Assembly: GCF_044324785.1 (NCBI RefSeq)
Contig: NZ_CP172127.1
DNA from: Escherichia coli
Lineage (GTDB): Bacteria > Pseudomonadota > Gammaproteobacteria > Enterobacterales > Enterobacteriaceae
Reading direction: 5' to 3' (one strand)
Length of the DNA: 64,000 nucleotides
Position 1 is the first letter of the stretch. Each line of letters opens with the position of its first letter. The notes beneath the pieces are model-generated. The model made no database searches, was not told the DNA's origin, and saw only the letters and a list, made by a program, of their open reading frames with translations. This document shows, piece after piece, positions 6,240 through 64,000 of the stretch. The position numbers and the translations under genes were made by a program.

Positions 6240-6385
6240 TTTATTACCACGGATAAATGTTATATTACGCATCAATTGATTCATTGTGTGAATATAAAAT
6301 AATGTGCTCTATCTTGCTTCGTTTACCCTATAATTAGCGGATTCATCTCACGAGTCGCCCCGTAACGTTCAGAGAGCGTTTTCAG

Positions 6386-48308: not shown

Positions 48309-49051
48309 TTAGTTAGTTCAAACTCAAAGAGTGATGTATCGCCTTCTGTTATTATTTATCAATAAAACAGGGAAGACCTTATTGGTCGTCTGAAATCGAA
48401 GGTTATTCATTTTCGGATATTTACGAGATATTTAGATATGCAATTTAATCAAATTCGTGTTTCTACCAATTGTAGAGCACAATGCTATTACTAAATTTTC
48501 ATCACTATAAAAGAATCGGCTATAATATAAAGCGCAGTCAGGCATCATTAATCTCTATATTATTCACACAATCTATTTATCAAGTGAATTTGATAAATTC
48601 CTAATTTAAAATATTCACTATTAAGCCAGCGTCTAACGACGTTAAGATGGCAATGTGCAGATCATGTTATCAGGGTGGGGCGGTAGCGTATATTCCTTAT
48701 ACAAACCATCATTCATTTCAATAATATTTATTGAGTTATTTATTATTGTGAATAAAAAGACATTACAAATATTGGTTTAACTTTGCATATCAGGTGTTTT
48801 TTTGTTACTCGATGTAATATACGAGCCTGTCCTTAATAACATCGTGAACCCGTCAGTTGAGTTTGTGATTATTTTGTTGACTCAACAGCCCCCCGTTTCT
48901 CTGAAGTAAAATCCCGGACAAAATTCTCACATAACCATGACACTTTTCTGATATTCCCCGGTAACGCCTGAAGCCGGCCCGCTTATCTCATTACCCGACA
49001 TGTTGTACATGCAATATGTGCGGATTATTATTCATTTTCACGGAGGTTGCT
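48309..49051. other. AT-rich non-coding junction between the core genome (cusS) and the Rhs/vgrG accessory element
   Basis: About 740 bp with no convincing ORF and abrupt compositional change; K-12 gene order would place nfrB here. Confidence 0.6.
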
Positions 49052-50953
49052 ATGTCAACCGGATTACGTTTCACACTGGAAGTGGACGGCCTGCCACCGG
49101 ACGCTTTTGCGGTGGTCTCCTTTCATCTCACCCAGTCACTCTCTTCACTTTTTTCCCTAGACCTTTCTCTGGTCAGTCAGCAGGTTCTCTCCCTTGAATT
49201 TGCGCAGGTGCTGGACAAAATGGCCTACCTGACGGTATGGCAGGGCGATGACGTACAGCGCCGGGTGAAAGGCGTGGTGACCTGGTTTGAACTCGGGGAG
49301 AACGACAAAAACCAGATGCTGTACAGCATGAAGGTGCGCCCGCCGCTGTGGCGGGCAGGACTGCGTCAGAACTTCCGTATCTTCCAGAACGAGGACATCA
49401 GAAGCATCCTCGGCACCATACTGCAGGAAAACGACGTCACGGAGTGGAGCCCGCTGTTCAGCGAGCCGCATCCTTCCCGTGAGTTTTGTGTCCAGTACGG
49501 TGAAACCGATTACGACTTTCTCTGCCGGATGGCAGCGGAGGAAGGCATCTTCTTCTATGAGGAGCACGCGCAGAAAAGTACCGACCAGAGTCTGGTGCTG
49601 TGCGACACGGTCCGCTATCTGCCGGAGTCCTTTGAAATCCCCTGGAACCCGAACACCCGTACCGAGGTGAGCACCCTCTGCATCAGCCAGTTCCGCTACA
49701 GCGCACAAATCCGTCCTTCCTCCGTGGTGACCAAAGACTACACCTTTAAACGCCCCGGCTGGGCCGGGCGTTTTGACCAGGAAGGCCAGCATCAGGATTA
49801 CCAGCGCACACAGTATGAAGTGTATGACTGGCCGGGGCGTTTCAAGAGCGCCCACGGGCAGAACTTTGCCCGCTGGCAGATGGACGGCTGGCGAAACAAC
49901 GCAGAAACCGCGCGGGGAATGAGCCGCTCGCCGGAGATATGGCCGGGACGGCGAATTGTGCTGACGGAGCATCCGCAGGCGAACCTGAACCGGGAATGGC
50001 AGGTGGTGGCGAGCGAACTGCACGGCGAACAGCCGCAGGCGGTGCCGGGACGGCGGGGCGCGGGGACGGCGCTGGAGAACCAGTTTGTGGTAATCCCGGC
50101 AGACCGGACGTGGCGGCCACAGCCGAAGCCAAAGCCGTCAGTGGACGGTCCACAGAGCGCCGTCGTGACGGGGCCTGCGGGAGAGGAAATCTTCTGCGAC
50201 GAGCATGGCCGGGTGCGGGTGAAATTCAACTGGGACCGCTATAACCCGGCCAACCAGGACAGCTCGTGCTGGATACGGGTGGCGCAGGCGTGGGCGGGGC
50301 CGGGATTTGGCAACCTGGCGATACCGCGCGTGGGTCAGGAGGTCATTGTGGACTTCCTCAACGGCGACCCAGACCAGCCCATCATCATGGGCCGCACCTA
50401 TCACCAGGAAAACCGCACCCCCGGCAGCCTGCCGGGAACGAAGACGCAGATGACCATCCGCTCCAAAACATATATGGGCAGCGGGTTTAACGAGCTGAAG
50501 TTTGACGATGCAACAGGGAAAGAACAGGTCTACATCCACGCGCAGAAGAACATGGATACCGAGGTGCTCAACGACCGTACCACCACCGTAAAACACGATC
50601 ACCGCGAAACCGTAAAAAATGACCAGACGGTCACGATCCAGGAAGGTAACCGCCTTCTTACGGTGGCAAAAGGCCACAAAATCACAGGCGTACTAAAAGG
50701 GTCCTTATCTGAGGATGTCTTTCAGGACAGAGGCACGATTGCCGGTTCAGTGCATGTTGACGCTGTAAACAATGGTGGCGAAGGCGACGGTATACAGGCT
50801 TATACGGCGATTAAGCAAATTATGCTGGCCGTGGAGGAAAGCAAAATTGCGCTGACGCCGGATGGCATTCAGCTACAGGTCGGGGAATCGACGGTAATCA
50901 GGCTGTCGAAGGATGGCATCACCATCGTGGGCAGTTCTGTTTTCATCAACTGA
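49052..50953 (+). CDS. vgrG: Rhs-linked VgrG (type VI secretion spike protein), 633 aa
   Basis: ORF-track frame 49016..50953; start at MSTGLRFTLEVDGLPPDAFAVVSF with GGAGG ribosome-binding site; gp27/gp5-like VgrG sequence. Confidence 0.9.
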   Translation: MSTGLRFTLEVDGLPPDAFAVVSFHLTQSLSSLFSLDLSLVSQQVLSLEFAQVLDKMAYLTVWQGDDVQRRVKGVVTWFELGENDKNQMLYSMKVRPPLWRAGLRQNFRIFQNEDIRSILGTILQENDVTEWSPLFSEPHPSREFCVQYGETDYDFLCRMAAEEGIFFYEEHAQKSTDQSLVLCDTVRYLPESFEIPWNPNTRTEVSTLCISQFRYSAQIRPSSVVTKDYTFKRPGWAGRFDQEGQHQDYQRTQYEVYDWPGRFKSAHGQNFARWQMDGWRNNAETARGMSRSPEIWPGRRIVLTEHPQANLNREWQVVASELHGEQPQAVPGRRGAGTALENQFVVIPADRTWRPQPKPKPSVDGPQSAVVTGPAGEEIFCDEHGRVRVKFNWDRYNPANQDSSCWIRVAQAWAGPGFGNLAIPRVGQEVIVDFLNGDPDQPIIMGRTYHQENRTPGSLPGTKTQMTIRSKTYMGSGFNELKFDDATGKEQVYIHAQKNMDTEVLNDRTTTVKHDHRETVKNDQTVTIQEGNRLLTVAKGHKITGVLKGSLSEDVFQDRGTIAGSVHVDAVNNGGEGDGIQAYTAIKQIMLAVEESKIALTPDGIQLQVGESTVIRLSKDGITIVGSSVFIN

Positions 50954-50980: not shown

Positions 50981-51442
50981 ATGCAGTTCACTTTTAATGA
51001 AGGTCATATTCAGCTGCCATCGCAATGGCAGGATCAGTCGATGCAGGTCCTGGTGTCCACAGATAACAGTGGCATCAACCTGGTCATTACCCGCGAACCC
51101 GTTCCACAGGGAACCCTGACACCAGAACTGTACCAGGAAACGCTGGCGCTGTACCAGGGCAAACTTGATGGGTACACCGAACATGCCTGCCGGGAAATCA
51201 CTCTGGCAGAGGCCCCGGCCTGGCTGCTGGATTATTCCTGGAACGGTCCGGAAGATGAAGGGAATCAGGGGCGGATTAGCCAGATAGCCGTATTCCAGCG
51301 GCGTGGAGATACGCTGCTGACCTTCACTTTCAGCACCTCCTTATCCCTGAAGAACAGTCAAAAGACGATGCTGCTGGAGGTGATAAAGAGCTTCACCCCG
51401 TTGCCACCGGAGAATGACATCCAAAAGGACCAGCCGCGCTGA
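50981..51442 (+). CDS. DUF1795-family (Eag-type) chaperone for a prePAAR effector, 153 aa
   Basis: Full ORF directly upstream of a prePAAR-Rhs gene; family call by gene context and size. Confidence 0.65.
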   Translation: MQFTFNEGHIQLPSQWQDQSMQVLVSTDNSGINLVITREPVPQGTLTPELYQETLALYQGKLDGYTEHACREITLAEAPAWLLDYSWNGPEDEGNQGRISQIAVFQRRGDTLLTFTFSTSLSLKNSQKTMLLEVIKSFTPLPPENDIQKDQPR

Positions 51443-51461: not shown

Positions 51462-54400
51462 ATGAGTGAAGGACCAGGCGGGCCACAGGGAGCGACCGCA
51501 GGCGGTACGCTGGCAATGCGAATGCTGTCACAGCAGGCGATGGTCGCCAGCCAGATGAAACGGGCAGCCAACGACAAAGCCATTGCACAGATGTTGGCAT
51601 CAAAAAAGTCTGGCCCCCCCGCCGCCAGGCTGGGCGATGAAATTCAGCACAAGAGTTTTTTGGGGGCGCTGGCAGGGGCCGTGCTGGGGGCGATAGTGAC
51701 CATCGCAGAAGGTTGCCTGATTATCGCCGCCTGTGCCACCGGCCCTTATGCGCTGGTTCTGGTGCCTGCGCTGATGTATGCCAGCTATAAGGCGAGTGAT
51801 TATGTGGAGGAGAAACAGAACCAGCTTGAATCCTGGATAAACAGCTTTTGTGACAAGGACGGGGCCATCAATACTGGTTCTAAAAATGTAAACATTAACG
51901 GAAAGCCCGCTGCCAGGGCCGCCGTCACACTTCCCCCTCCTCCCCTGACTGAAGCAATACCCTCTCCACCACAGGGGGAACCTTCATGGGGGGATATTGC
52001 CACTGACCTGCTTGAATCGGCAGCGGAAAAAGCAGTGCCACTGGCGAAGGCCTGGGGGAACGCTGTTATCACCCTGACGGACAGCAATGCCAGTTTTATG
52101 GATCGCTTATGTGCAGGCACATCGCTTCTGTTTCCCTACGGCCCGGTATTAATGGAGTTTGCCACCATGGTGGGCGGGCGTGGCGAAATCAAAAAAGACG
52201 TGGATTTCCCGGAAGCCGGTGAAGACACGGCGCTCTGCGACAAGGAGACTAAACCGCCGAGGATAGCCCAGGGCAGCAGCAACGTCTTCATCAACAATCA
52301 GCCTGCCGCGCGCAAGGGCGACAAACTGGAGTGCAGCGCGGCAATCGTGGAAGGTTCGCCGGACGTCTTTATTGGGGGTGAGCAGGTCACCTATCTGGAT
52401 ATCCAGCCGGAGTTCCCGCCGTGGCAGAGAATGATCCTGGGGGGAATAACGATAGCCAGCTATCTTCTGCCGCCAGCGGGACTGCTGGGAAAAATGAAGA
52501 ATCTGGCGAGACTCGGCAAACTGGGAAACCTGCTGGGGAAAAGCGGGAAGCTGCTGGGCGCAAAACTCGGCGCATTGCTGAGCAGAACAAAAAATGCCCT
52601 GAAAAATACGTATAACGTCCTGAAAAAGTTTATCAAAGATCCGGTTGACCCGGTAACCGGCGCGTACTGCGACGAACGTACCGACTTCACCCTGGGCCAG
52701 ACCCTCCCCCTCTCCTTCACCCGTTTCCACAGTTCTGTACTGCCACTGCATGGCCTGACGGGCGTGGGCTGGAGCGACTCCTGGAGCGAATACGCCTGGG
52801 TGCGTGAACAGGGAAACCGGGTGGATATCATCAGCCAGGGAGCCACGCTGTACTTTGCCTTCGACGGAGACAGTGATACGGCGGTTAACCCGTATCACGC
52901 CCAGTATATCCTGCGCCGCCGCGACGATTACCTGGAGCTGTTCGACCGTGATGCCCTGAGCAGCCGCTTCTTTTATGACGCCTTTCCGGGAATGCGCCTG
53001 CGCCACCAGGTGACCGGCGATACCAATGATGACCGCCTGGCACACAGCCCCGGTGACCGGATGTACATGCTGGGCGGAATGAGTGACACCGCCAGCAACC
53101 GCATCACGTTTGAGCGCGACAGTCAGTACCGGATCACGGGTGTCAGTCACACCGACGGGATCCGGCTTAAACTGACGTACCACGCCAGCGGCTACCTGAA
53201 AGCCATTCACCGCACGGATAACGGCATACAGACGCTGGCGACCTACGAACAGGACGAACGGGGACGGCTGACAGAAGCGGATGCGCGGCTGGACTACCAC
53301 CTGTTTTATGAGTACGACGATGCGGACCGGATCATCCGCTGGTCCGATAACGACCAGACGTGGAGCCGTTTCACCTACGATGCACAGGGCCGGTGCGTGA
53401 CCGTCACCGGGGCGGAAGGCTATTACAACGCCACGCTGGACTATGGTGACGGCTGCACTTCCGTGACGGACGGCAAGGGCATTCACCGTTATTACTATGA
53501 TCCTGACGGCAATATCCTGCGGGAAGACGCGCCGGACGGCAGTACCACCACGTATGAATGGGATGAATTCCATCACCTGCTGGCCCGCCACTCCCCTGCC
53601 GGACGGGTGGAGAAATTTGAATACAACGCCGTACACGGTCAGTTAAGCCGTTACACGGCGGCAGACGGCGCGGTGTGGCAGTACCGCTATGATGAGCGCG
53701 GCCTGCTCAGCAACATCACCGACCCTGCCGGGCAGACGTGGACACAGCAGTGTGATGAACGCGGCCTGCCGGTAAGTCTGGTGTCGCCACAGGGCGAAGA
53801 GACCCGGCTGGCGTACACGCCACAGGGGCTGCTGTCGGGGATATTCCGCCAGGATGAACGGCGTCTGGGCATAGAGTACGACCACCACAACCGGCCGGAA
53901 ACACTCACCGACGTGATGGGCCGTGAACACCACACCGAATACAGCGGTCACGACCTGCCGGTGAAGATGCGCGGCCCCGGCGGTCAGTCAGTGCGGTTAC
54001 AGTGGCAGCAGCACCATAAACTGAGTGGCCTTGAGCGGGCAGGAACCGGCGCGGAAGGATTCCGCTACGACCGCCACGGCAACCTGCTGGCGTACACGGA
54101 CGGTAACGGCGTTGTCTGGACAATGGAATACGGCCCGTTCGATTTGCCGGTGGCGCGAACGGACGGTGAAGGCCACCGCTGGCAGTACCGCTACGATAAA
54201 GACACGCTGCAACTGACAGAAGTCATCAATCCGCAGGGTGAGTCATACCGTTATATTCTCGACAACTGTGGCCGGGTGACGGAAGAGCGTGACTGGGGCG
54301 GCGTGGTCTGGCGTTACCGCTATGACGCCGATGGCCTGTGTACCGCCAGGGTTAACGGCCTGGAGGAAACTATCCTCTACAGCCGGGACGCCGCAGGCCG

Positions 54401-56324
54401 CCTGGCAGAAGTCATCACCCCGGAAGGCAAAACGCAGTATGCGTATGACAAATCCGGCAGGCTGACGGGTATCTTCAGCCCGGACGGCACATCACAGCGC
54501 ACCGGCTACGACGAACGCGGGCGGGTGAATGTCACCACTCAGGGCAGACGGGCCATTGAGTACCACCACCCCGATGAACACACCGTTATCCGCTGTATCC
54601 TGCCACCGGAAGATGAACGCGACAGACACCCCGGTGAATCCCTGCTGAAAACCACCTACCGCTACAACGCCGCCGGAGAACTGACGGAGGTTATCCTGCC
54701 GGGGGATGAGACGCTGACGTTCAGCCGTGATGAGGCAGGACGTGAAGTGCTCCGGCACAGTAACCGGGGTTTTGCCTGTGAACAGGGCTGGAATGCAGCC
54801 GGTCAGCTTACCAGCCAGCGCGCCGGATTTTTCCCGGCGGAAGCCACATGGGGCGGACTGCTCCCCTCACTGGTGCGGGAGTACCGTTACGACAGCGCGG
54901 GCAATGTGTCGGCTGTCACCAGCCGGGAAGACTACGGACGGGAAACACGGCGGGAGTACCGGCTGGACCGGAACGGCCAGGTCACAACGGTGACAGCCTC
55001 AGGCACCGGGCTGGGCTATGGCGAAGGCGACGAGACTTATGGCTATGACAGCTGCGGCTACCTGAAGGCGCAGTCTGCGGGCAGGCACCGGATAAGTGAA
55101 GAGACTGACCAGTATGCCGGAGGCCACCGGCTGAAACAGGCCGGAAACACGCAGTATGACTATGACGCCGCAGGCCGGATGGTCAGCCGCACCAGACACC
55201 GTGACGGCTACCGCCCGGAAACAGAGCGGTTCCGGTGGGACAGCCGGGACCAGCTGACCGGGTATTGCAGCGCACAGGGGGAGCAGTGGGAATACCGCCA
55301 CGACGCCAGCGGCAGGCGGACGGAAAAACGCTGCGACCGGAAGAAAATCCGTTTTACGTACCTGTGGGACGGCGACAATATTGCGGAAATCCGGGAATAC
55401 CGCGATGATAAACTGTACAGCGTACGGCACCTGGTGTTTAACGGCTTTGAGCTGGTAAGCCAGCAGTGCAGCCGGGTACGGCAGGCGCATCCGTCCGTGG
55501 CCCCGCAGTGGGTGACGCGAACGAATTATGCGGTGAGCGACCTGACAGGCCGCCCGCTGATGCTCTTTAACAGTGAAGGTAAAACCGTCTGGCGGCCGGG
55601 ACAGACCAGCCTGTGGGGGCTGGCACTCAGCCTGCCCGCAGACACCGGCTACCCGGACCCGCGCGGGGAACTGGACCCGGAAGCCCCCCCCGGCCTGCTG
55701 TATGCGGGACAGTGGCAGGATACGGAATCGGGGCTGTGCTATAACCGGTTCCGGTATTACGAGCCGGAAACCGGAATGTACCTGGTGAGTGATCCGCTGG
55801 GGTTGCAGGGAGGTGAGCAGACTTACCGGTATGTGCCTAATCCTTGTGGGTATGTTGATCCGCTGGGGCTGGCAAAAACCAGTATTATAAAATCTTCTAC
55901 AGGCAAAATCCCACAAGGGTTAACAAAAAGCGAATTTGAGATTTTTTCAAAAAAATTAAAGGATGTATTAGCCCGAGAGGGAATCTCGACAGAGAATGTG
56001 TTTGTACATGGCAGTAGAGCCAGAGGAGATGCTGTATCAGGTGTTTCAGATATTGATATAAAAGTGATCCTTAGTGATAAAGATTTTGGTGCCTTTGCAG
56101 CAAGACGTATTGCTGAGTCCTCAGGAAGGACTCGAAATTTAATCAGGAAGGCCGTTGCTAAAAATCAAAAAATAAATTCAAGAGGAATTTCTAAAACTTT
56201 TGAATCTACTGTATGGGATGAGGTTTTCACTACCTTACCAAAAGGTGAGTTTTCAAGCATTCAAGTTTCTGTTATGACCAAAACTTCACCATTCAACACT
56301 AATCCGAGTATTATATTACCATGA
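51462..56324 (+). CDS. prePAAR/PAAR-domain Rhs effector with C-terminal polymorphic toxin domain, 1620 aa
   Basis: N-terminal AARLGDEIQH prePAAR motif and TM helices, split PAAR region, YD/Rhs repeats, PxxxxDPxGL-type demarcation (PNPCGYVDPLGL), then an AT-rich 150-aa C-terminal extension. Confidence 0.92.
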   Translation: MSEGPGGPQGATAGGTLAMRMLSQQAMVASQMKRAANDKAIAQMLASKKSGPPAARLGDEIQHKSFLGALAGAVLGAIVTIAEGCLIIAACATGPYALVLVPALMYASYKASDYVEEKQNQLESWINSFCDKDGAINTGSKNVNINGKPAARAAVTLPPPPLTEAIPSPPQGEPSWGDIATDLLESAAEKAVPLAKAWGNAVITLTDSNASFMDRLCAGTSLLFPYGPVLMEFATMVGGRGEIKKDVDFPEAGEDTALCDKETKPPRIAQGSSNVFINNQPAARKGDKLECSAAIVEGSPDVFIGGEQVTYLDIQPEFPPWQRMILGGITIASYLLPPAGLLGKMKNLARLGKLGNLLGKSGKLLGAKLGALLSRTKNALKNTYNVLKKFIKDPVDPVTGAYCDERTDFTLGQTLPLSFTRFHSSVLPLHGLTGVGWSDSWSEYAWVREQGNRVDIISQGATLYFAFDGDSDTAVNPYHAQYILRRRDDYLELFDRDALSSRFFYDAFPGMRLRHQVTGDTNDDRLAHSPGDRMYMLGGMSDTASNRITFERDSQYRITGVSHTDGIRLKLTYHASGYLKAIHRTDNGIQTLATYEQDERGRLTEADARLDYHLFYEYDDADRIIRWSDNDQTWSRFTYDAQGRCVTVTGAEGYYNATLDYGDGCTSVTDGKGIHRYYYDPDGNILREDAPDGSTTTYEWDEFHHLLARHSPAGRVEKFEYNAVHGQLSRYTAADGAVWQYRYDERGLLSNITDPAGQTWTQQCDERGLPVSLVSPQGEETRLAYTPQGLLSGIFRQDERRLGIEYDHHNRPETLTDVMGREHHTEYSGHDLPVKMRGPGGQSVRLQWQQHHKLSGLERAGTGAEGFRYDRHGNLLAYTDGNGVVWTMEYGPFDLPVARTDGEGHRWQYRYDKDTLQLTEVINPQGESYRYILDNCGRVTEERDWGGVVWRYRYDADGLCTARVNGLEETILYSRDAAGRLAEVITPEGKTQYAYDKSGRLTGIFSPDGTSQRTGYDERGRVNVTTQGRRAIEYHHPDEHTVIRCILPPEDERDRHPGESLLKTTYRYNAAGELTEVILPGDETLTFSRDEAGREVLRHSNRGFACEQGWNAAGQLTSQRAGFFPAEATWGGLLPSLVREYRYDSAGNVSAVTSREDYGRETRREYRLDRNGQVTTVTASGTGLGYGEGDETYGYDSCGYLKAQSAGRHRISEETDQYAGGHRLKQAGNTQYDYDAAGRMVSRTRHRDGYRPETERFRWDSRDQLTGYCSAQGEQWEYRHDASGRRTEKRCDRKKIRFTYLWDGDNIAEIREYRDDKLYSVRHLVFNGFELVSQQCSRVRQAHPSVAPQWVTRTNYAVSDLTGRPLMLFNSEGKTVWRPGQTSLWGLALSLPADTGYPDPRGELDPEAPPGLLYAGQWQDTESGLCYNRFRYYEPETGMYLVSDPLGLQGGEQTYRYVPNPCGYVDPLGLAKTSIIKSSTGKIPQGLTKSEFEIFSKKLKDVLAREGISTENVFVHGSRARGDAVSGVSDIDIKVILSDKDFGAFAARRIAESSGRTRNLIRKAVAKNQKINSRGISKTFESTVWDEVFTTLPKGEFSSIQVSVMTKTSPFNTNPSIILP
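55872..56321 (+). other. Rhs C-terminal toxin domain, candidate nucleotidyltransferase fold
   Basis: HGSRARGDAVSGVSDIDIKV matches the hG[GS]-x(9-13)-DhDh nucleotidyltransferase signature by eye; sharp drop in GC at the DPLGL boundary. Confidence 0.55.
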
Positions 56325-56671
56325 AGAAAAAAGATATTAGATTTGCAATATCCATTAACTCCAACTTAAGTAAGATAGAATTAATGGAAAAAATTAAAAA
56401 TATAATCCCAGGGCTTATTGAAATAACTTCCAGTGCATTAAGAGAAGAAAAAAACATGGTAGTTATTGAAGAAAATGATCTTTATGACCCTATAAAAGCA
56501 GAGGGAGCTGATGGATGGATGTATTATAAATTCATATTATCCATATTCCCATTAAAGGGAGTGGAAACAACATTAGAATATCAACGGGAATTATCTTTTC
56601 TTTTCTTAAAGAAAATAAAAGATGCGGGCCTGTTGGGTGAACTTATATGCGAGGATGATTTTCATGACTGA
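56321..56671 (+). CDS. Putative cognate immunity protein for the Rhs toxin, 116 aa
   Basis: ATG overlaps the rhs stop (ATGA); AT-rich small ORF immediately downstream of the toxin domain. Confidence 0.7.
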   Translation: MKKKDIRFAISINSNLSKIELMEKIKNIIPGLIEITSSALREEKNMVVIEENDLYDPIKAEGADGWMYYKFILSIFPLKGVETTLEYQRELSFLFLKKIKDAGLLGELICEDDFHD

Positions 56672-56719
56672 TGACCTCTACATATATCCTCAGTTCGTGG
56701 CTGGTATTACATGATCTGA

Positions 56720-56880
56720 CAGGGAAAGATCGTGGCGAAATCAAAAAAGACGTGGATTTCCCGGAAGCCGGTGAGGACACGGCGCTCTGCGACAAGGAGA
56801 ACAAACCACCGAGGATAGCCCAGGGCAGCAGCAACGTCTTCATCAACAATCAGCCTGCCGCACGCAAAGGGGACAAACTG
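56720..56880 (+). repeat. Displaced copy of an rhs PAAR-region fragment (matches about 52180-52328), flanked by 'cagggaaagat' 11-mers
   Basis: About 150 bp near-identical to the main rhs gene; left flank carries the same 11-mer that begins the H-repeat element. Confidence 0.8.
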
Positions 56881-58171
56881 CAGGGAAAGATCACGTAACG
56901 CTGCTTTTTTGTACTAAATAATTCGCATTTTATGTTTAAAAATTGAGATATTCCTCATTACCTAAAGCTGTTTTTTATTGCTTATACATGATCAAATACT
57001 CCTTACATAATTAAGGAGAACAAAATGGAACTTAAAAAATTGATGGAACATATTTCTGTTATCCCCGATTACAGACAAGCATGGAAAGTAGAACATAAAT
57101 TGTCAGATATTCTACTGTTGACTATTTGCGCCGTCATTTGTGGTGCAGAAGGCTGGGAAGATATAGAGGATTTTGGTGAAACACATCTCGATTTTTTGAA
57201 GCAATATGGTGATTTTGAAAATGGTATTCCTGTCCACGATACCATTGCCAGAGTTGTATCCTGTATCAGTCCTGCAAAATTTCACGAGTGCTTTATTAAC
57301 TGGATGCGAGATTGCCATACTTCAGATGATAAAGACGTTATTGCAATCGATGGAAAAACACTCCGGCATTCTTATGACAAGAGTCGCCGCAGGGGAGCGA
57401 TTCATGTCATTAGTGCGTTCTCAACAATGCACAGTCTGGTCATCGGACAGATCAGGACGGATGAGAAATCTAATGAGATTACAGCTATCCCAGAACTTCT
57501 TAACATGCTGGATATTAAAGGAAAAATCATCACAACTGATGCGATGGGTTGCCAGAAAGATATTGCAGAGAAGATACAAAAACAGGGCGGTGATTATTTA
57601 TTCGCTGTAAAAGGAAATCAGGGGCGGCTTAATAAAGCCTTTGAGGAAAAATTCCCACTGAAAGAATTAAATAATCCAGAGCATGATAGTTACGCAATTA
57701 GTGAAAAGAGTCACGGCAGAGAAGAAATCCGACTTCATATTGTTTGCGATGTCCCTGATGAACTTATTGATTTCACGTTTGAATGGAAAGGGCTGAAGAA
57801 ATTATGCATAGCAGTCTCCTTTCGCTCAATAATAGCAGAGCAAAAGAAAGAGCCAGAAATGACGGTCAGATATTATATCAGTTCTGCTGATTTAAACACA
57901 GAAAAGTTCGCCACAGCAATCCGAAACCACTGGCACGTGGAGAATAAGCTGCACTGGCGTCTGGATGTGGTAATGAATGAAGACGACTGCAAAATAAGAA
58001 GAGGAAATGCAGCAGAATTATTTTCAGGGATACGGCACATCGCTATTAATATTTTGACGAATGATAAGGTATTCAAGGCAGGGTTAAGACGTAAGATACG
58101 AAAAGCAGCTATGGACAGAAACTACATGGCGTCAGTCCTTGCGGGGAGCGGGCTTTCGTAATCTTTCCCTG
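56881..58171 (+). mobile_element. H-repeat (ISAs1-family) insertion sequence, complete copy, about 1.29 kb
   Basis: Terminal inverted repeats cagggaaagatcacg (left) and cgtaatctttccctg (right); contains an intact transposase ORF. Confidence 0.85.
57025..58161 (+). CDS. ISAs1-family (H-repeat-associated) DDE transposase, 378 aa
   Basis: Full ORF with AAGGAG ribosome-binding site; [50 protein letters not shown]... typical of E. coli H-repeat ORF-H proteins. Confidence 0.88.
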
Positions 58172-58174
58172 GAC

Positions 58175-58396
58175 ATGACGATTATTGTTCGTTCAAATCC
58201 GAGTAAAGCCGCTATTCTTGAAGAATTTTTACATGGTACACAAGAGAAACTAGGAATAGCTGAAAAATTAGGACGTTATGGACTAGGGAGTGCAGAAACG
58301 CACGTTAAGGATTTCATGATAAGACACAAAAAAATGCTTGGGTTATCTGATGAGGATGTAGCAATACTCAAAATATTGAAAGACAAGGGGTTGTGA
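58175..58396 (+). CDS. Hypothetical small protein, 73 aa (possible toxin C-terminal remnant or immunity protein)
   Basis: ATG 3 nt after the IS right end; ORF-track frame 58139..58396 begins inside the IS. Confidence 0.35.
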   Translation: MTIIVRSNPSKAAILEEFLHGTQEKLGIAEKLGRYGLGSAETHVKDFMIRHKKMLGLSDEDVAILKILKDKGL

Positions 58397-58683
58397 TGAA
58401 TATAATTCTGCCGATAAAAGATATATTTATTATTGCGGGAAACATAGTTTTTAGCGTTTTATACAATGAACATATTGAGTTCCCATGCCGCTGCCAATTA
58501 CTATCTTCAAATTCTGAAGTTATGCAAGAGTTATATATTGAAAAAGAGTTATTTATTAAACGCACTACAGAAAATGATTGTCGTGCTTTAGTGTTAAGAG
58601 GAACATTGGAATACTTATTTGATGAAATTATTGCTGGCGATTGTGCATTGGCCTTATTACAAAAAGAAATAAAAAAAGATTAA
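58393..58683 (+). CDS. Hypothetical protein, 96 aa, candidate orphan immunity protein
   Basis: ATGA overlap with the preceding ORF; AT-rich; position within the Rhs orphan array. Confidence 0.45.
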   Translation: MMNIILPIKDIFIIAGNIVFSVLYNEHIEFPCRCQLLSSNSEVMQELYIEKELFIKRTTENDCRALVLRGTLEYLFDEIIAGDCALALLQKEIKKD

Positions 58684-58895
58684 TCCAATATGTAGAACTG
58701 GACAATACCCATCTTTTAACAATGAACTTCGTAATTTTTATCTTAGAAATAATGCTACATTATATGAGGTATATCATGAAGTAATTCATGCCAAGCAATT
58801 TGCGAAAATATTTCTATCGGAGGTGCTGATGCACCATCTAATATGAGACTTATGGATATAATGACACATACAACTCATCATAAATATTACAGGCC

Positions 58896-59264
58896 TTGGG
58901 AATGATAAATAAAATAGTGAAAAAAATGTTGGTTTCATATAGCCCTAAGAAACCGGAGTCTAGGGGCGGGGATTTTGTTATTCCGTTGTTTTTTAATGAG
59001 AAAGTTTCTTTTTTTAGCATAAAAAGTGGCAAGCCAGTGCGATATGGTCTTATGGTATTTACAGGGAAAGTAATTACCATAGATGATATTCTTAGTAAAG
59101 TTCGTTTTCCTGATGTTATGAATGAGCAAAATATTCAACCGTTAATTGACTTTATTAATAACATTAGCGATTTTAAAATAGGGGATGTTATTGAAATTGA
59201 TGATAATGGTAAATTGAAAGTTGTGCCAAAATCAGCAGGACACCCTGTGAGTAAATTGCCATGA
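58896..59264 (+). CDS. Hypothetical protein, about 120 aa, candidate orphan immunity protein
   Basis: AT-rich ORF (ATG at 58902); its stop lies about 20 bp before orphan rhs homology begins, in the same frame. Confidence 0.45.
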   Translation: MGMINKIVKKMLVSYSPKKPESRGGDFVIPLFFNEKVSFFSIKSGKPVRYGLMVFTGKVITIDDILSKVRFPDVMNEQNIQPLIDFINNISDFKIGDVIEIDDNGKLKVVPKSAGHPVSKLP

Positions 59265-59284
59265 TACTTAAGGGGCCTGATTTT

Positions 59285-62051
59285 CTGTTTTTGCCAGTGG
59301 GACGAATACCATCACCTGCTGGCGAGGCTGTCTCCGGCAGGACGGCTGGAAAAGTTTGACTATCATCTGACACTCGGTCAGTTAAGCCGTTACACGGCGG
59401 CAGACGGCGCGGAGTGGCAGTACCGCTATGATGAGCGCGGCCTGCTCAGCAACATCACCGACCCTGCCGGGCAGACGTGGACACAGCAGTGCGATGAACG
59501 CGGCCTGCCGGTGAGTCTGGTGTCGCCACAGGGCGAAGAGACCCGGCTGGCGTACACCGCTCAGGGGCTGCTGTCGGGGATATTCCGCCAGGATGAACGG
59601 CGTCTGGGCATAGAGTACGACCACCACAACCGGCCGGAAACACTCACCGACGTGATGGGCCGTGAACACCACACCGAATACAGCGGTCACGACCTGCCGG
59701 TGAAGATGCGCGGCCCCGGCGGTCAGTCAGTGCGCTTACAGTGGCAGCAGCACCATAAACTGAGCGGCATTGAACGTGCTGGAACCGGCGCGGAAGGATT
59801 TCGCTATGACCGCCACGGCAACCTGCTGGCCTGGACGGACGGCAACGGTGTTGACTGGACAATGGAATACGGCCCGTTTGATTTGCCGGTGGCGCGAACG
59901 GACGGTGAAGGCCACCGCTGGCAGTACCGCTACGATAAAGACACGCTGCAACTGACAGAAGTCATCAATCCGCAGGGCGAGTCATACCGTTATATTCTCG
60001 ACAACTGTGGGCGGGTGACGGAAGAGCATGACTGGGGCGGCGTGGTCTGGCGTTACCGCTATGACGCCGATGGTCTGTGTACCGCCAGGGTTAACGGCCT
60101 GGAGGAAACCATCCTCTACAGCCGGGACGCCGCAGGCCGCCTGGCAGAAGTCATCACCCCGGAAGGGAAAACGCAGTATGCGTATGACAAATCCGGCAGG
60201 CTGACGGGTATCTTCAGCCCGGACGGCACATCACAGCGCACCGGCTACGACGAACGCGGGCGGGTGAATGTCACCACTCAGGGCCGACGGGCCATTGAAT
60301 ACCACCACCCCGATGAACACACCGTCATCCGCTGTATCCTGCCACCGGAAGATGAACGCGACAGACACCCCGGTGAATCCCTGCTGAAAACCACCTACCG
60401 CTACAACGCCGCCGGAGAACTGACGGAGGTTATCCTGCCGGGGGATGAGACGCTGACGTTCAGCCGTGATGAGGCAGGACGTGAAGTGCTCCGGCACAGT
60501 AACCGGGGTTTTGCCTGTGAACAGGGCTGGAATGCAGCCGGTCAGCTTACCAGCCAGCGCGCCGGATTTTTCCCGGCGGAAGCCACATGGGGCGGACTGC
60601 TCCCCTCACTGGTGCGGGAGTACCGTTACGACAGCGCGGGCAATGTGTCGGCTGTCACCAGCCGGGAAGACTACGGACGGGAAACACGGCGGGAGTACCG
60701 GCTGGACCGGAACGGCCAGGTCACAACGGTGACAGCCTCAGGCACCGGGCTGGGCTATGGCGAAGGCGACGAGACTTATGGCTATGACAGCTGCGGCTAC
60801 CTGAAGGCGCAGTCTGCGGGCAGGCACCGGATAAGTGAAGAGACTGACCAGTATGCCGGAGGCCACCGGCTGAAACAGGCCGGAAACACGCAGTATGACT
60901 ATGACGCCGCAGGCCGGATGGTCAGCCGCACCAGACACCGTGACGGCTACCGCCCGGAAACAGAGCGGTTCCGGTGGGACAGCCGGGACCAGCTGACCGG
61001 GTATTGCAGCGCACAGGGGGAGCAGTGGGAATACCGCCACGACGCCAGCGGCAGGCGGACGGAAAAACGCTGCGACCGGAAGAAAATCCGTTTTACGTAC
61101 CTGTGGGACGGCGACAATATTGCGGAAATCCGGGAATACCGCGATGATAAACTGTACAGCGTACGGCACCTGGTGTTTAACGGCTTTGAGCTGGTAAGCC
61201 AGCAGTGCAGCCGGGTACGGCAGGCGCATCCGTCCGTGGCCCCGCAGTGGGTGACGCGAACGAATTATGCGGTGAGCGACCTGACAGGCCGCCCGCTGAT
61301 GCTCTTTAACAGTGAAGGTAAAACCGTCTGGCGGCCGGGACAGACCAGCCTGTGGGGGCTGGCACTCAGCCTGCCCGCAGACACCGACTACCCGGACCCG
61401 CGCGGGGAGCTGGACCCGGAAGCCGACCCCGGCCTGCTGTATGCAGGACAGTGGCAGGATACGGAATCAGGGCTGTGCTATAACCGGTTCCGGTACTACG
61501 AGCCGGAAACCGGAATGTACCTGGTGAGTGATCCGCTGGGGTTGCAGGGGGGTGAGCAGACTTACCGGTATGTGCCGAATCCTTTAAGATATAAAGATTT
61601 CTATGGGCTTAGTAAGAGTTCAATAATAACGAGAGGAAAGAATGCTGGTCATGGCTATGCAGCCAGCGTTACACCTGGAGGCAAAGGTACGGTGTTGGCT
61701 GGTCACGGAGGATCAAAATTTGGCGATAAAATGATTATACCAGAAGGCGTATCGATAACGATGCCGAGAGATGGTATTAAAATATCAGATATGACTGGAA
61801 AATTACTGGAATCTGGTAATGTGGATGATATAATTAAAGCTGCAAGTAATAATCCTCGTGTAGCTAGCGATCTTGAAGGTTGGGTTACTTATTTGCCCGG
61901 CACTGAAATCCCTGATTATATTTTAAAACCACCCACCAATCTTAACATACTGGAAAATTCAGTAACGGTGAACACTTCAACTTATTTATCTCAAATGGTA
62001 AATGCTGGTCAAGGTAATGTAATCTGGGCTGCATGCACCGAATTTTTTTAA
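59285..62051 (+). CDS. Orphan rhs C-terminal cassette (Rhs core repeats plus alternative toxin domain); no canonical ATG, first in-frame start is GTG at 59511
   Basis: Near-identical to the main rhs from about aa 700 onward, then diverges at a degenerate PNPLRYKDFYGL motif into a distinct roughly 147-aa AT-rich C-terminus. Confidence 0.8.
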
Positions 62052-62065
62052 CGCGGGGTAATCGT

Positions 62066-62548
62066 ATGTATTTTAAAGATGATACTGACTATACATATTT
62101 CCTTCCTAATGAATATTTTTTACACGGGGTGAAAAATGTGGGCTGGATAGACAGAGAACACCCCTTCACAAAAGGGATTAGTGACGCTGAATTTATTGAA
62201 AAGTTAAAAGCAATAATTCTAACAGAGAATGAAGCAACTTGTTTTTCAGTTAATAAAATAAGAGGATTTCACAAATGTAATTTTTGCAATAGTGAAATGA
62301 TAACAATAACCGATGGAAGAAAAAAAGGATACCTTGGCATGAGTGAAATATGGATTCCATCCATCCACCATAATGAGTATTACGCGTTTCCTTCATTAAT
62401 TTTCCATTATATAACATCTCACATGTATAGACCACCAGAGGACTTTATTGTATCTGTTTTAAACTTGAATTTAAGCGAGAGTTTTTGCGCTCAAAACATA
62501 TATGACAATAAAATTAAGGAATTAAAAATAGACTTCTGGTTTCGTTAA
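62066..62548 (+). CDS. Putative immunity protein for the orphan Rhs toxin, 160 aa
   Basis: ORF-track frame 62033..62548; ATG at 62066 just after the orphan toxin stop; AT-rich, Cys/His-containing. Confidence 0.6.
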   Translation: MYFKDDTDYTYFLPNEYFLHGVKNVGWIDREHPFTKGISDAEFIEKLKAIILTENEATCFSVNKIRGFHKCNFCNSEMITITDGRKKGYLGMSEIWIPSIHHNEYYAFPSLIFHYITSHMYRPPEDFIVSVLNLNLSESFCAQNIYDNKIKELKIDFWFR

Positions 62549-62559
62549 AGCTGGTAATT

Positions 62560-62917
62560 TAACTTATCGGGAATACCGCTATGATGGCAGTTTCAGACGG
62601 ACGGAGAAATGCTGTCAGCAAAAAGACTTCCGCTTCGCGTATCTGTGGGGCATGGGGATAATTTATCTTCATCAATTGATATATTGATTAATGGCAAGGA
62701 GGCCATTGAAATTCCGTAAGGCCAACTTGATATGACGCCTGGCACACAGCCCCGGTGACCGGATGTATATGCTGGGCGGGATGAGCGACACCGCCAGCAA
62801 CCGCATCACGTTTGAGCGCGACAGCCAGTACCGGATCACGGGTGTCAGTCACACCGACGGGATCCGGCTTAAACTGACGTACCACGCCAGCGGCTACCTG
62901 AAAGCCATTCACCGCAG
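62560..62917 (+). pseudogene. Degenerate rhs core fragments (one matching about 55270-55380, one matching 53038-53214 of the main rhs)
   Basis: Two short stretches of rhs homology, the first degenerate, the second truncated by the H-repeat insertion at 62915. Confidence 0.7.
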
Positions 62918-64000
62918 GGAAAGATCACGTAACGCTGCTTTTTTGTACTAAGCAATTCGCATTTTATGTTCAGTATTTGAGATACTCCTTATAACACAAA
63001 CCTGTTTTTCATAGCTTATATATGTAGGAAAAGATCACGTAACGCTCCTTTTTTGTACTAAATAATTCGCATTTTATGTTTAAAAATTGAGATATTCCTC
63101 ATTACCTAAAGCTGTTTTTTATTGCTTACACATGATCAAATACTCCTTACATAATTAAGGATAACAAAATGTAACTTAAAAAATTGATGGAACATATTTC
63201 TATTATCCCCGATTACAGACAAGCCTGGAAAGTGGAACATAAATTATCGGATATTCTACTGTTGACTATTTGTGCCGTTATTTCGGGTGCAGAAGGTTGG
63301 GAAGATATAGAGGATTTTGGGGAAACACATCTCGATTTTTTAAAACAATATGGTGATTTTGAAAATGGTATTCCTGTTCACGATACCATTGCCAGAGTTG
63401 TATCCTGTATCAGCCCTGCAAAATTTCACGAGTGCTTTATTAACTGGATGCGAGATTGCCATACTTCAGATGATAAAGACGTCATCGCAATTGATGGAAA
63501 AACACTCCGGCATTCTTATGGCAAGAGTCGCCGCAGGGGAGCGATTCATGTCATTAGTGCGTTCTCAACAATGCACAGTCTGGTCATCGGACAGATCAGG
63601 ACGGATGAGAAATCCAATGAAATTACAGCTATCCCTGAACTTCTTAACATGCTGGATATTAAAGGAAAAATCATCACAACTGATGCAATGGGTTGCCAGA
63701 AAGATATTGCAGAGAAGATACAAAAACAGGGCGGTGATTATTTATTCGCTGTAAAAGGAAATCAGGGGCGGCTTAATAAAGCCTTTGAGGAAAAATTTCC
63801 ACTGAAAGAATTAAATAATCCAGAGCATGACAGTTACGCCATTAGTGAAAAGAGTCACGACAGAGAAGAAATCCGTCTTCATATTGTTTGCGATGTCCCT
63901 GATGAACTTATTGATTTCACGTTTGAATGGAAAGGACTGAAGAAATTATGCGTGGCAGTCTCCTTTCGGTCAATAATAGCAGAACAAAAGAAAGAGCCAG
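62915..64000 (+). mobile_element. Second H-repeat (ISAs1-family) element, partial (runs off the window); 5' end carries a degenerate about 110-bp duplicate of the IS left end
   Basis: cagggaaagatcacgtaacgctgc... repeated at 62915 and again (ggaaaagatcacgtaacgctcc...) at 63027; the rest is near-identical to the first copy. Confidence 0.8.
63197..64000 (+). CDS. ISAs1-family transposase, second copy, partial at window end; ancestral start codon is followed by TAA (ATG TAA) so translation could only begin at the Met7-equivalent
   Basis: aaaatgtaacttaaaaaattgatggaacat versus aaaatggaacttaaaaaattgatggaacat in copy 1; downstream frame intact to the window end. Confidence 0.6.

What the first reader, a model, noticed from the sequence alone, without database searches (positions are those of the whole stretch)
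62560..62917. Mosaic of rhs core fragments upstream of the second IS marks a recombination hotspot
A degenerate stretch resembling the rhs core end (YRYDGSFRRTEKCCQQKDFRFAYLW, compare EYRHDASGRRTEKRCDRKKIRFTYLW in the main gene) is followed by a near-identical fragment of an earlier core region (matching 53038-53214). Such scrambled pieces indicate repeated recombination and deletion among rhs copies and IS elements.
Basis: seen in the sequence. Interest (0 to 1): 0.35.

Follow-up and report, generated by a model that had tools for sequence, protein, structure and literature searches.

The report
Dead Rhs toxin-gene remnants beside ISEc1
This stretch is non-functional debris at the far end of an E. 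coli Rhs toxin island: a scrap of a foreign rhs gene, the tail of a deleted immunity gene, the first 183 bases of a displaced rhs copy and a broken insertion-sequence end. This is the ordinary, already described look of such islands.

Summary
Window 62732-62920 matches main rhs 53029-53218 at 96.8% (E 2e-87). Window 62569-62649 matches the 3' core region of both resident rhs copies at 71.6% nt (E 7e-6) and 17/26 aa (E 2e-10).

One is the last ~27 codons of a SUKH-3 immunity gene (62640-62719). The other is a 110-bp divergent ISAs1/H-rpt left end (62915-63024), lying directly before a full ISEc1 (63025 onward).

The locus is the cusS-nfrB vgrG/PAAR-Rhs island of E. coli; the closest complete genome is strain N3.

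Comparison with other strains shows most junctions are inherited, not recent:
- The core scrap / SUKH-3 join sits in a 9-nt "YLW" microhomology and is shared by 58 genomes.
- The SUKH-3 / rhs-stub join is shared by roughly 420 genomes.
- In strain PapRG-06-3 the stub continues as a 2.9-kb displaced orphan rhs with its own toxin tip and immunity genes.
- In 379 genomes the stub is 333 bp long and abuts ISEc1.
- Only N3 and this window have the 183-bp stub plus the IS relic.
- The ISEc1-nfrB junction is fixed in 2288 of 5426 genomes, while its left flank varies.

Verdict: these are relics of C-terminal displacement, trimmed by one microhomology deletion and by IS-end deletions. The phenomenon is known (Jackson 2009; K-12 RhsC). 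Interest is low.

The parts
62033..62548 (+). Immunity gene (DUF7919) of the preceding orphan Rhs-CT (Stv-like tip). It is intact and marks the upstream border of the relic zone.
   Evidence: ORF. Pfam PF25535 DUF7919, E 4e-34. GC 0.32.
62569..62649 (+). 81-bp relic of the 3' core region of a divergent rhs lineage, equivalent to main Rhs residues 1277-1302. It starts 21 bp after the DUF7919 stop codon and is the stump of a displaced orphan tip whose toxin has been deleted.
   Evidence: 71.6% nt to 55288-55368 and 61027-61107, E 6.7e-6. 17/26 aa, E 2e-10. 80.2% to F9792 main rhs, L004 9001-9081. GC 0.52.
62640..62652 (+). Deletion junction. The 9-nt microhomology TATCTGTGG (rhs 'YLW') matches TATCTTTGG (SUKH-3 'YLW'), followed by 4 nt of unclear origin. 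The join is out of frame.
   Evidence: Anchored sequence comparison of window, main rhs, F9792 rhs and O111 SUKH-3. The same junction is present in 58 genomes and in L002 and L006.
62653..62719 (+). 3' end (last ~22-27 codons plus the stop at 62717-62719) of a SUKH-3 family immunity gene. The rest of the gene is deleted.
   Evidence: Window 62640-62920 is collinear with O111 RM9322 L003 12001-12282 at 95%. The intact L003 gene 11644-12081 hits Pfam PF14433 SUKH-3, E 9e-13. The intact gene region is present in ~300 genomes. The tail translates to GDNLSSSIDILINGKEAIEIP*.
62720..62731 (+). Short spacer between the SUKH-3 stop and the 5' breakpoint of the displaced rhs copy. This is an old junction shared across strains.
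   Evidence: Collinear in L002, L003 and L005.
62732..62914 (+). 183-bp 5' stub of a 5'-truncated, displaced orphan rhs, equivalent to main rhs 53029-53212 (residues ~523-584). It is cut off by an IS end. NCBI's PGAP annotation pipeline marks it as an incomplete RHS pseudogene in N3.
   Evidence: 96.8% to 53029-53218, E 2.5e-87. The same 5' breakpoint continues for 333 bp in L002/L003 and for 2.8 kb plus CT and immunity genes in PapRG-06-3, L005 10609-13558. GC 0.62. Annotation.
62915..63024 (+). Relic of a divergent ISAs1-family (H-rpt) element: positions 1-110 of its left end, beginning with the terminal repeat CAGGGAAAGATCACG.
   Evidence: 83-86% to the left ends of the two full ISEc1 copies. 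End sequences. Unique among 5426 genomes; the next best match is 89-90%, next to ybfQ in RhsC.
63025..64000 (+). ISEc1 (H-rpt) copy 2, cut by the window end. In strain N3 it is the full 1291 bp (equivalent to window 63025-64315) and is followed by nfrB.
   Evidence: 96% to copy 1 (56881-58171). 1291-bp match to L002 ISEc1. Annotated as an ISAs1-like ISEc1 family transposase. Copy 1's transposase hits Pfam DDE_Tnp_1 and DDE_Tnp_1_assoc. Terminal inverted repeats.
53029..53218 (+). Segment of the main PAAR-rhs gene that is the counterpart of the stub. It forms a direct repeat with 62732-62920.
55288..55368 (+). Segment of the main rhs core (residues 1277-1302) that is the counterpart of the degenerate relic. 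The same sequence occurs at 61027-61107 in the large orphan.

Best explanation
Window 62549-63024 is a non-functional graveyard at the nfrB-proximal end of the E. coli cusS-nfrB VgrG/EagR(DcrB)/PAAR-Rhs type VI effector island. It holds the leftovers of at least two older Rhs toxin-immunity modules and one older insertion sequence.

Proposed history:

(1) Inferred from the Jackson 2009 model. New 'core fragment + toxin tip + immunity' modules entered the main rhs by homologous recombination and pushed earlier tips downstream. This produced, in order, a module ending in a SUKH-3 immunity gene and then a 5'-truncated rhs copy starting at the equivalent of main position 53029. That intermediate state still exists in strain PapRG-06-3.

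(2) Shown by junction sequence. A deletion between the codons for Y-L-W in the rhs core and Y-L-W in the SUKH-3 gene (TATCTGTGG / TATCTTTGG) removed the rest of the core, the toxin domain and about 80% of the immunity gene. It left an 81-bp core scrap fused out of frame to the immunity tail.

(3) Truncation shown, mechanism inferred. The displaced rhs copy was truncated at IS ends. In 379 genomes it is cut after 333 bp directly at the ISEc1 left end. In the N3/window lineage it is cut after 183 bp by a different H-rpt variant, which is itself cut after 110 bp by the left end of the resident ISEc1. The likely mechanism is transposase-mediated adjacent deletion. The result is a tandem 'partial + full' H-rpt, as in K-12 RhsC.

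Nothing in the stretch is expected to be expressed or useful. Its only residual activity is as short direct-repeat homology.
For: Identity of the pieces.

Locus identity and gene order (vgrG, DcrB-like, PAAR-Rhs, immunity genes, ISEc1, nfrB). The nfrB-cusS site is listed as a conserved Rhs locus in Jackson 2009.

Intermediate state: in PapRG-06-3 (L005), SUKH-3 is followed at the same breakpoint by a 2.9-kb orphan rhs with CT and immunity genes.

The deletion junction sits in an 8/9-nt microhomology and is out of frame.

Inheritance counts:
- 58 genomes carry the scrap/SUKH-3 join.
- 365 genomes carry the SUKH-3 region.
- 379 genomes carry the 333-bp stub/ISEc1 junction.
- 2288 of 5426 carry the ISEc1/nfrB junction.
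- 1 genome carries the N3-type junction.

Among the ISEc1 copies whose flanks were compared (window copy 1; N3 copy 2; the nfrB-proximal copy of L002, L003 and L004), none has flanking target-site duplications. The left flanks differ while the right flank is constant in L002-L005.

The K-12-type RhsC locus has the same '380-bp left part + full copy + third partial copy' H-rpt array after an orphan rhs and its immunity gene.

The GC mosaic 0.32/0.52/0.35/0.62/0.34/0.38 matches the piece boundaries.

The displacement model and dissociated tips with core fragments of variable length are described in PMC2935791. Orphan rhs-CT/rhsI modules and IS-disrupted orphans are described in PMC3150448.
Against: No intact version of the deleted module (this core end + toxin + SUKH-3) was found anywhere. 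It is therefore unproven that the core scrap and the SUKH-3 tail once belonged to one module; the deletion could have spanned several modules.

The order of events is inferred from a handful of strains, not from a phylogeny.

The window's array cannot be derived from the PapRG-06-3 arrangement by deletions alone. The immunity genes that follow the long orphan there lie 4 kb upstream of the stub here, at 58172-58784.

IS-mediated adjacent deletion is inferred only from the junction geometry. ISEc1/H-rpt transposition activity was not tested here, and to my recollection it has not been demonstrated experimentally.

Non-expression was not tested.
Confidence: 0.88

Rival explanations
1. One reading: the fragments were generated in this genome by repeated recombination between its own rhs copies and the two ISEc1 copies, so the site is an active hotspot.
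For: The window has 190-bp, 2.29-kb and 1.29-kb direct repeats that could recombine. The stub/IS junction is private to N3 and this window. The locus content differs among strains.
Against: The core scrap is only 71.6% identical to both resident cores. The scrap/SUKH-3 and SUKH-3/stub junctions are shared at 95-99% by 58 and roughly 420 genomes. The junction types are microhomology and IS-end, not rhs-rhs crossovers. Homologous recombination between IS copies cannot create a 'positions 1-110 then 1-1291' tandem.
Confidence: 0.07
2. The remnants are retained because they are useful, for example the 183-bp stub or the 81-bp core scrap as homology 'landing pads' for loading or exchanging toxin tips, or the small ORF 62763-62951 as a product.
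For: Orphan modules with core homology can recombine with the main gene to switch toxins (Koskiniemi 2014, PMC3967940, listed; Poole 2011 discussion). The stub is 97% identical to the main gene. The relics are conserved in tens to hundreds of genomes.
Against: No toxin or complete immunity gene follows either fragment, so recombination with the main gene would only truncate it at residue ~586 and delete the whole effector array. The 81-bp scrap at 72-80% identity is too short and too divergent for efficient RecA recombination (general knowledge). The scrap/SUKH-3 fusion is out of frame. PGAP calls the stub a pseudogene. The conservation is explained by clonal inheritance.
Confidence: 0.04
3. 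The tandem IS left ends and the truncated stub are an assembly artefact of repeated sequence.
For: ISEc1 and rhs cores are multi-copy (median of 5 matching places per genome). The N3 annotation shows several 'frameshifted' genes, which suggests an indel-prone assembly.
Against: The 110-bp piece is only 83-86% identical to any other IS end in the window and at most 90% to any in 5426 genomes, so it cannot be a mis-joined read from another copy. The window and N3 differ by 1-2% elsewhere, so they appear to be independent sequences that share the structure. An analogous tandem exists in K-12-type RhsC.
Confidence: 0.02

Closest known systems
Dissociated ('orphan') rhs tips produced by C-terminal displacement (Jackson et al. 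2009, BMC Genomics 10:584, whose Table 3 lists the nfrB-cusS locus; Poole et al. 2011, PLoS Genet 7:e1002217)
   Same: Lies downstream of a full-length vgrG-linked PAAR-rhs and its immunity gene. The fragments carry rhs core sequence of variable length, each beginning shortly after the stop of the preceding immunity gene. The same tip is attached in one strain and displaced in another: the zincin tip is attached in NCCP 13905 and orphaned in O157:H7.
   Different: The two fragments in the finding are no longer modules. One has lost its toxin and most of its immunity gene; the other has lost everything after 183 bp. The core scrap is much more divergent (72-80%) than the model's expectation that dissociated cores match the resident clade closely.
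Distal end of E. coli K-12-type RhsC (ybfO orphan, ybfC, then ybfQ/ybfL/ybfD H-rpt copies). The primary description is, from memory, Zhao et al. 1993 J Bacteriol; I did not read it here.
   Same: An orphan rhs fragment and immunity gene are followed by a truncated left portion of an H-rpt, joined directly to position 1 of a full H-rpt (L007 6002-6382, then 6382-7558), just as window 62915-63024 is joined to 63025 onward.
   Different: Different chromosomal locus. The partial copy is 380 bp there against 110 bp here. RhsC has a third partial copy on the right. The 110-bp relic here belongs to an H-rpt variant not otherwise seen at more than 90% identity.
Salmonella Typhimurium LT2 main rhs / orphan rhs pair (Koskiniemi et al. 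2014, PLoS Genet 10:e1004255)
   Same: Direct repeats of core sequence link a main rhs and a downstream orphan. The window has such a pair at 53559-55845 / 59298-61584 (97.4%).
   Different: That system concerns an intact orphan toxin/immunity module that can be activated by recombination. The fragments in this finding have no toxin to activate.
IS-mediated adjacent deletions (intramolecular transposition), a general property of bacterial insertion sequences. Stated from general knowledge, not tested here.
   Same: One IS end stays fixed (ISEc1-nfrB in 2288 genomes) while the sequence abutting the other end differs between lineages. Flanking target duplications are absent.
   Different: Transposase activity of ISEc1/H-rpt was not tested here, and to my recollection it has never been demonstrated. 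Spontaneous deletions ending at the IS by chance, or recombination with other copies, remain possible.

Membership tests
Rhs dissociated tip / orphan rhs-CT–rhsI module | [quoted passage not shown] | tested here: met
   Main PAAR-rhs 51462-56324 and immunity 56321-56671 lie upstream on the same strand.
Rhs dissociated tip / orphan rhs-CT–rhsI module | Contains sequence homologous to the rhs core | tested here: met
   62732-62920 is 96.8% identical to the core (E 2.5e-87). 62569-62649 is 71.6% nt and 17/26 aa identical (E 2e-10).
Rhs dissociated tip / orphan rhs-CT–rhsI module | Core fragment runs through the PxxxxDPxGL boundary into a variable C-terminal toxin domain | tested here: not met
   The scrap stops at YLW and is fused to a SUKH-3 tail. 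The stub stops at an IS end after 183 bp. Both are therefore relics of such modules, not modules.
Rhs dissociated tip / orphan rhs-CT–rhsI module | Followed by a cognate immunity gene | tested here: not met
   Only the last ~27 codons of the SUKH-3 gene remain. Nothing follows the stub except IS sequence.
SUKH-3 immunity protein family (Pfam PF14433) | Encodes a protein matching the SUKH-3 profile | tested here: not met
   The intact orthologue in O111 RM9322 matches PF14433 (E 9e-13). The window keeps only 62640-62719, 95% identical to that gene's 3' end. This is a gene remnant.
ISAs1 family, ISEc1 / H-rpt | About 1.29-kb element with imperfect terminal inverted repeats and one DDE transposase gene | tested here: met
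   Copy 1 (56881-58171) is 1291 bp, with ends CAGGGAAAGATCACGTAACGC / CAGGGAAAGATTACGAAAGCC. Its transposase hits DDE_Tnp_1 and DDE_Tnp_1_assoc. Copy 2 is complete in N3. The 62915-63024 piece has only the first 110 bp.
ISAs1 family, ISEc1 / H-rpt | Flanking target-site duplication from simple insertion | tested here: not met
   No direct repeat flanks copy 1, copy 2 (N3) or the L002/L003/L004 copies. This is consistent with secondary rearrangement at one or both ends.
T6SS VgrG–EagR–PAAR-Rhs effector island | vgrG, a DUF1795/DcrB-like chaperone gene, and an rhs with prePAAR/PAAR and RHS repeats, in that order | tested here: met
   vgrG 49016-50953, DcrB-like gene 50981-51442 (PF08786, E 6e-28), and rhs with PAAR, prePAAR and RHS_repeat hits. 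Secretion itself is not testable with these tools.

The most novel reading that the evidence does not exclude
The long-noticed but unexplained association of H-rpt/ISEc1 elements with Rhs loci may reflect a role for the IS as a fixed distal 'bookend'. On this reading its inward-facing end repeatedly makes one-sided deletions, pruning the oldest displaced toxin/immunity modules and so limiting array length. The evidence compatible with this is that one ISEc1-nfrB junction is shared by 2288 genomes while at least four different sequences abut the other end, and that tandem truncated H-rpt ends recur at two different Rhs loci.
Probability: 0.15. Interest if true: 0.4.

Novelty: already known. Interest (0 to 1): 0.1.

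Why it matters
It matters little on its own. It is a clean, nucleotide-level example of how Rhs effector islands age. Tips are displaced downstream, and toxins are lost before the last traces of their immunity genes. Array ends are trimmed at insertion-sequence ends.

It may be of practical use for annotation: the 81-bp core scrap and the SUKH-3 tail are unannotated in RefSeq. The nested junctions, shared by 1, 58, 379, about 420 and 2288 genomes, could also serve as lineage markers for this island. No open question is made testable beyond the modest IS-pruning idea.

Tried and rejected
(1) Search for an intact ancestor of the deleted module.
- A degenerate-codon DNA pattern for TEKCCQQKDFR across one genome per species found one contig. 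It is labelled as a Collinsella MAG but is E. coli rhs sequence carrying the same deletion.
- A pattern requiring EKCCQQK-x5-YLWDG across the metagenome contigs found nothing.
- A protein search with the 43-aa toxin tail that precedes SUKH-3 in PapRG-06-3 found only two short fragments.

(2) In E. coli complete genomes, no copy of the scrap is better than 80% identical outside the 58-genome clade.

(3) No source for the 110-bp IS relic was found. The best match outside N3 is 89-90%, next to ybfQ in RhsC.

(4) An Rfam scan of 56000-64000 found no RNA family.

(5) A shared target motif at the three rhs/IS junctions (main-gene equivalents 52331, 53212 and 53368) was looked for by eye.

(6) I considered that differences between the window and N3 might mark a recent recombination confined to the rhs core. 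I rejected this because the whole 64-kb window shows the same patchy 0-3% divergence.

(7) Chance similarity and an assembly artefact were considered and rejected (see the rival explanations).

Full report
**Observation**

Window 62732-62920 aligns to 53029-53218 of the main rhs gene at 96.8% over 190 columns (E 2.5e-87). Window 62569-62649 aligns to 55288-55368 (main gene) and to 61027-61107 (large orphan copy) at 71.6% over 81 nt (E 6.7e-6). At protein level, EYRYDGSFRRTEKCCQQKDFRFAYLW matches residues 1277-1302 of the 1620-aa Rhs at 17/26 (E 2e-10). All other YD repeats of that protein score E > 0.03, so the match is positional rather than generic repeat similarity.

The two rhs pieces are not contiguous, and the rhs stub does not run up to the full IS.

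- Window 62640-62920 is collinear at 95% with E. coli O111 RM9322 (L003 12001-12282). There, the first 81 bp are the 3' end of a 145-aa gene whose product matches Pfam SUKH-3 (PF14433, E 9e-13). So 62653-62719 is the tail of a SUKH-3 immunity gene (…GDNLSSSIDILINGKEAIEIP*).
- The rhs stub ends at 62914. Window 62915-63024 is the first 110 bp of an ISAs1-family element, beginning with the terminal repeat CAGGGAAAGATCACG. It is only 83-86% identical to the left ends of the two full ISEc1 copies, and it is followed immediately by position 1 of the full 1291-bp ISEc1 (63025 onward).
- GC content tracks these boundaries: 0.32 (DUF7919 immunity gene), 0.52 (core scrap), 0.35 (SUKH-3 tail), 0.62 (stub), 0.34 (IS relic), 0.38 (ISEc1).

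**Context**

The window is E. coli. The closest complete genome is strain N3 (NZ_CP031609). It is 100% identical over 62000-63200 but 1-2% different over most of the window, so the window comes from a different, related strain.

The finding lies at the distal end of an island inserted between cusS and nfrB. The gene order is:

- vgrG (49016-50953)
- a DcrB/DUF1795-type adaptor gene (50981-51442)
- a prePAAR/PAAR-Rhs gene with a nucleotidyltransferase-like tip (51462-56324), then its immunity gene
- a 153-bp PAAR-region fragment
- ISEc1 copy 1 (56881-58171)
- immunity genes without toxins, and a zincin-toxin fragment
- a 2.3-kb orphan rhs with an Stv-like tip (59298-62051) and its DUF7919 immunity gene (62033-62548)
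- the relic zone
- ISEc1 copy 2
- nfrB (seen in N3)

. Jackson et al. 2009 list nfrB-cusS as one of the conserved Rhs loci of E. coli and Shigella (PMC2935791).

**Junction by junction**

J1. The core scrap starts 21 bp after the DUF7919 stop codon. This is the usual position for the start of a displaced tip.

J2. The scrap is joined to the SUKH-3 tail inside TATCTGTGG (62640-62648). This sequence is the rhs 'YLW' codons (identical in the F9792 rhs) and differs at one base from the SUKH-3 'YLW' codons, TATCTTTGG. Four bases of unclear origin follow, and the fusion is out of frame. An 8/9 match exactly at a breakpoint is the signature of a microhomology-mediated deletion. The deletion removed the remaining ~155 core codons, the toxin domain and about 80% of the immunity gene. 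The identical junction is present in 58 of 5426 complete genomes at 95-99% identity, including Z1322HEC0006 (L002, 99.2% over 965 bp).

J3. The SUKH-3 stop codon, a short spacer and then rhs sequence starting at the equivalent of main position 53029 form a join found in every strain inspected that has SUKH-3 (L002, L003, L005). That is roughly 420 genomes: the 365 with the SUKH-3 region plus the 58 above. In the baboon isolate PapRG-06-3, rhs continues from this breakpoint for 2.8 kb (95.9% to main 53029-55845), into its own C-terminal tip and two small immunity genes, before reaching ISEc1 and nfrB. The 'near-identical fragment' is therefore the 5' edge of a displaced, 5'-truncated rhs copy. 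This is exactly the product predicted by the C-terminal displacement model (PMC2935791).

J4/J5. In 379 genomes the displaced copy is cut after 333 bp directly at the ISEc1 left terminus. In N3 and this window alone it is cut after 183 bp by the divergent H-rpt end, which is in turn cut after 110 bp by ISEc1.

**The IS as a fixed boundary**

The junction between the ISEc1 right end and the nfrB upstream region is present in 2288 of 5426 genomes, including O157:H7. The sequence abutting the left end, however, falls into at least four classes among the genomes examined:

- zincin-toxin immunity gene plus ~380 bp (F9792, O157:H7, AR144.2, NCCP 13905)
- the 333-bp rhs stub (Z1322HEC0006, O111)
- a PapRG-06-3-specific flank
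- the N3/window relic

. None of the ISEc1 copies whose flanks I compared has a flanking target-site duplication. A constant outer junction with variable inner junctions is what one-sided, IS-end-anchored deletions would give. I infer transposase-mediated adjacent deletion but cannot test it.

A 'positions 1-110, then 1-1291' tandem cannot arise by homologous recombination between IS copies. The same geometry occurs in the K-12-type RhsC locus: a 380-bp left portion joined to a full copy, then a third partial copy. There it follows the ybfO orphan and ybfC.

**Origin of the degenerate scrap**

The scrap is 71.6% identical to both resident cores and at best 80.2% identical to any rhs in 5426 genomes; the best match is the main rhs of F9792 at the same locus, which shares the EKCC(R/Q)QK variant. 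The adjacent relics are 95-97% identical to their counterparts. The divergence is therefore not in-place decay. The scrap comes from a divergent rhs lineage.

The core fragments that precede SUKH-3 in O111 and PapRG-06-3 are also unusually divergent (83-87%). This fits the scrap and SUKH-3 having arrived together on one foreign module, though I could not prove it. No intact copy was found in E. coli complete genomes, in one genome per species of bacteria and archaea, in the metagenome contigs, or by protein search with the 43-aa toxin tail that survives upstream of SUKH-3 in other strains.

**How it works**

It does not. There is no toxin, no complete immunity gene and no in-frame fusion. The stub is annotated as a pseudogene and no RNA family matches. 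Its only residual activity is as repeat homology. Recombination between the stub and its 190-bp counterpart in the main gene would truncate the effector. The functionally meaningful repeat pair in the window is the 2.29-kb core repeat between the main gene and the large orphan (97.4%). That is the kind of substrate shown to load orphan toxins in Salmonella (PMC3967940, listed).

**Interpretation and novelty**

'Scrambled pieces of the resident rhs copies' and 'hotspot' overstate it. Most junctions are old and clonally inherited. One is a microhomology deletion and the others are truncations at IS ends. The primary literature already describes dissociated tips with core fragments of variable length, IS-disrupted orphans and this very locus. 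I rate it as already known, with low interest.

The least ordinary reading still open is that ISEc1/H-rpt acts as a recurrent pruning device at the end of Rhs arrays. I give it about 15%.

Noticed in passing
window 56731-58784: The first ISEc1 copy (56881-58171) shows the same pattern as the second. Its left end abuts a 153-bp fragment of the PAAR region of rhs (94.8% to 52179-52331). Its right end abuts immunity genes (58172-58784, 98.5% to PapRG-06-3 L005 13627-14239), the first of which has lost about 36 bp of its 5' end. There is no target-site duplication. In PapRG-06-3 those immunity genes follow the long orphan whose stub here lies 4 kb further downstream, so the window's array cannot be derived from that arrangement by deletions alone.
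   Followed up: partly
L003 11512-11643 and L005 ~10010-10200 (upstream of SUKH-3 in other strains): About 40 codons of a toxin C-terminus survive upstream of the intact SUKH-3 gene: …SDLEVHTVLVKTGEAFPMCKNC(Q/F)…VVT(S/R)G*. The PMCKNC motif resembles the PCxxC zinc motif of deaminase-type toxins; that resemblance is from memory and untested. No full-length homologue was found among 5.8 billion proteins.
   Followed up: partly
window 1-64000 versus N3 (L001, L008): The window is not strain N3. Divergence is patchy at 0-3% along the whole 64 kb, yet 55000-60000 and 61500-64000 (including the finding) are 100% identical. The main rhs is one intact 1620-aa ORF here, whereas PGAP calls it frameshifted in N3. 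No complete E. coli genome matches the vgrG-rhs 5' part better than N3 does (97.6%; the next is 94%).
   Followed up: partly
L001 16317 onward (N3, just beyond the window end) versus L002 16361-16431: N3 lacks 71 bp immediately to the right of ISEc1 copy 2 that are present in Z1322HEC0006, O111, F9792 and PapRG-06-3. This is a second deletion ending exactly at an IS terminus. It cannot be checked in the window, which ends inside the IS.
   Followed up: partly
window 53559-55845 and 59298-61584: A 2.29-kb direct repeat of rhs core (97.4%) links the main gene to the large orphan with the Stv-like tip and DUF7919 immunity gene. A crossover here would swap the main gene's nucleotidyltransferase-like tip for the orphan tip and delete ISEc1 copy 1 and the genes between.
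   Followed up: no
L006 (JAIJJM010000330.1, labelled MAG: Collinsella sp.): This 3.5-kb contig is E. coli rhs-island sequence. It is 99.2% identical to window 61956-62884 and carries the same scrap/SUKH-3 deletion. It is almost certainly a binning contaminant in the Collinsella MAG.
   Followed up: yes
L009 (O157:H7 strain 2149), L010, L011 (NCCP 13905), L004 (F9792): The zincin-like metallopeptidase tip is attached to the full-length rhs in NCCP 13905 but sits as a displaced orphan behind a different tip in O157:H7 and F9792. The window keeps only a ~100-bp fragment of it (58710-58809, 86%). This is a textbook example of tip displacement at this locus.
   Followed up: partly
window 62915-63024: The 110-bp IS relic represents an H-rpt/ISAs1 variant for which no copy above 90% identity exists in 5426 complete E. 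coli genomes. Its nearest relatives are the partial copies next to ybfQ in RhsC.
   Followed up: partly
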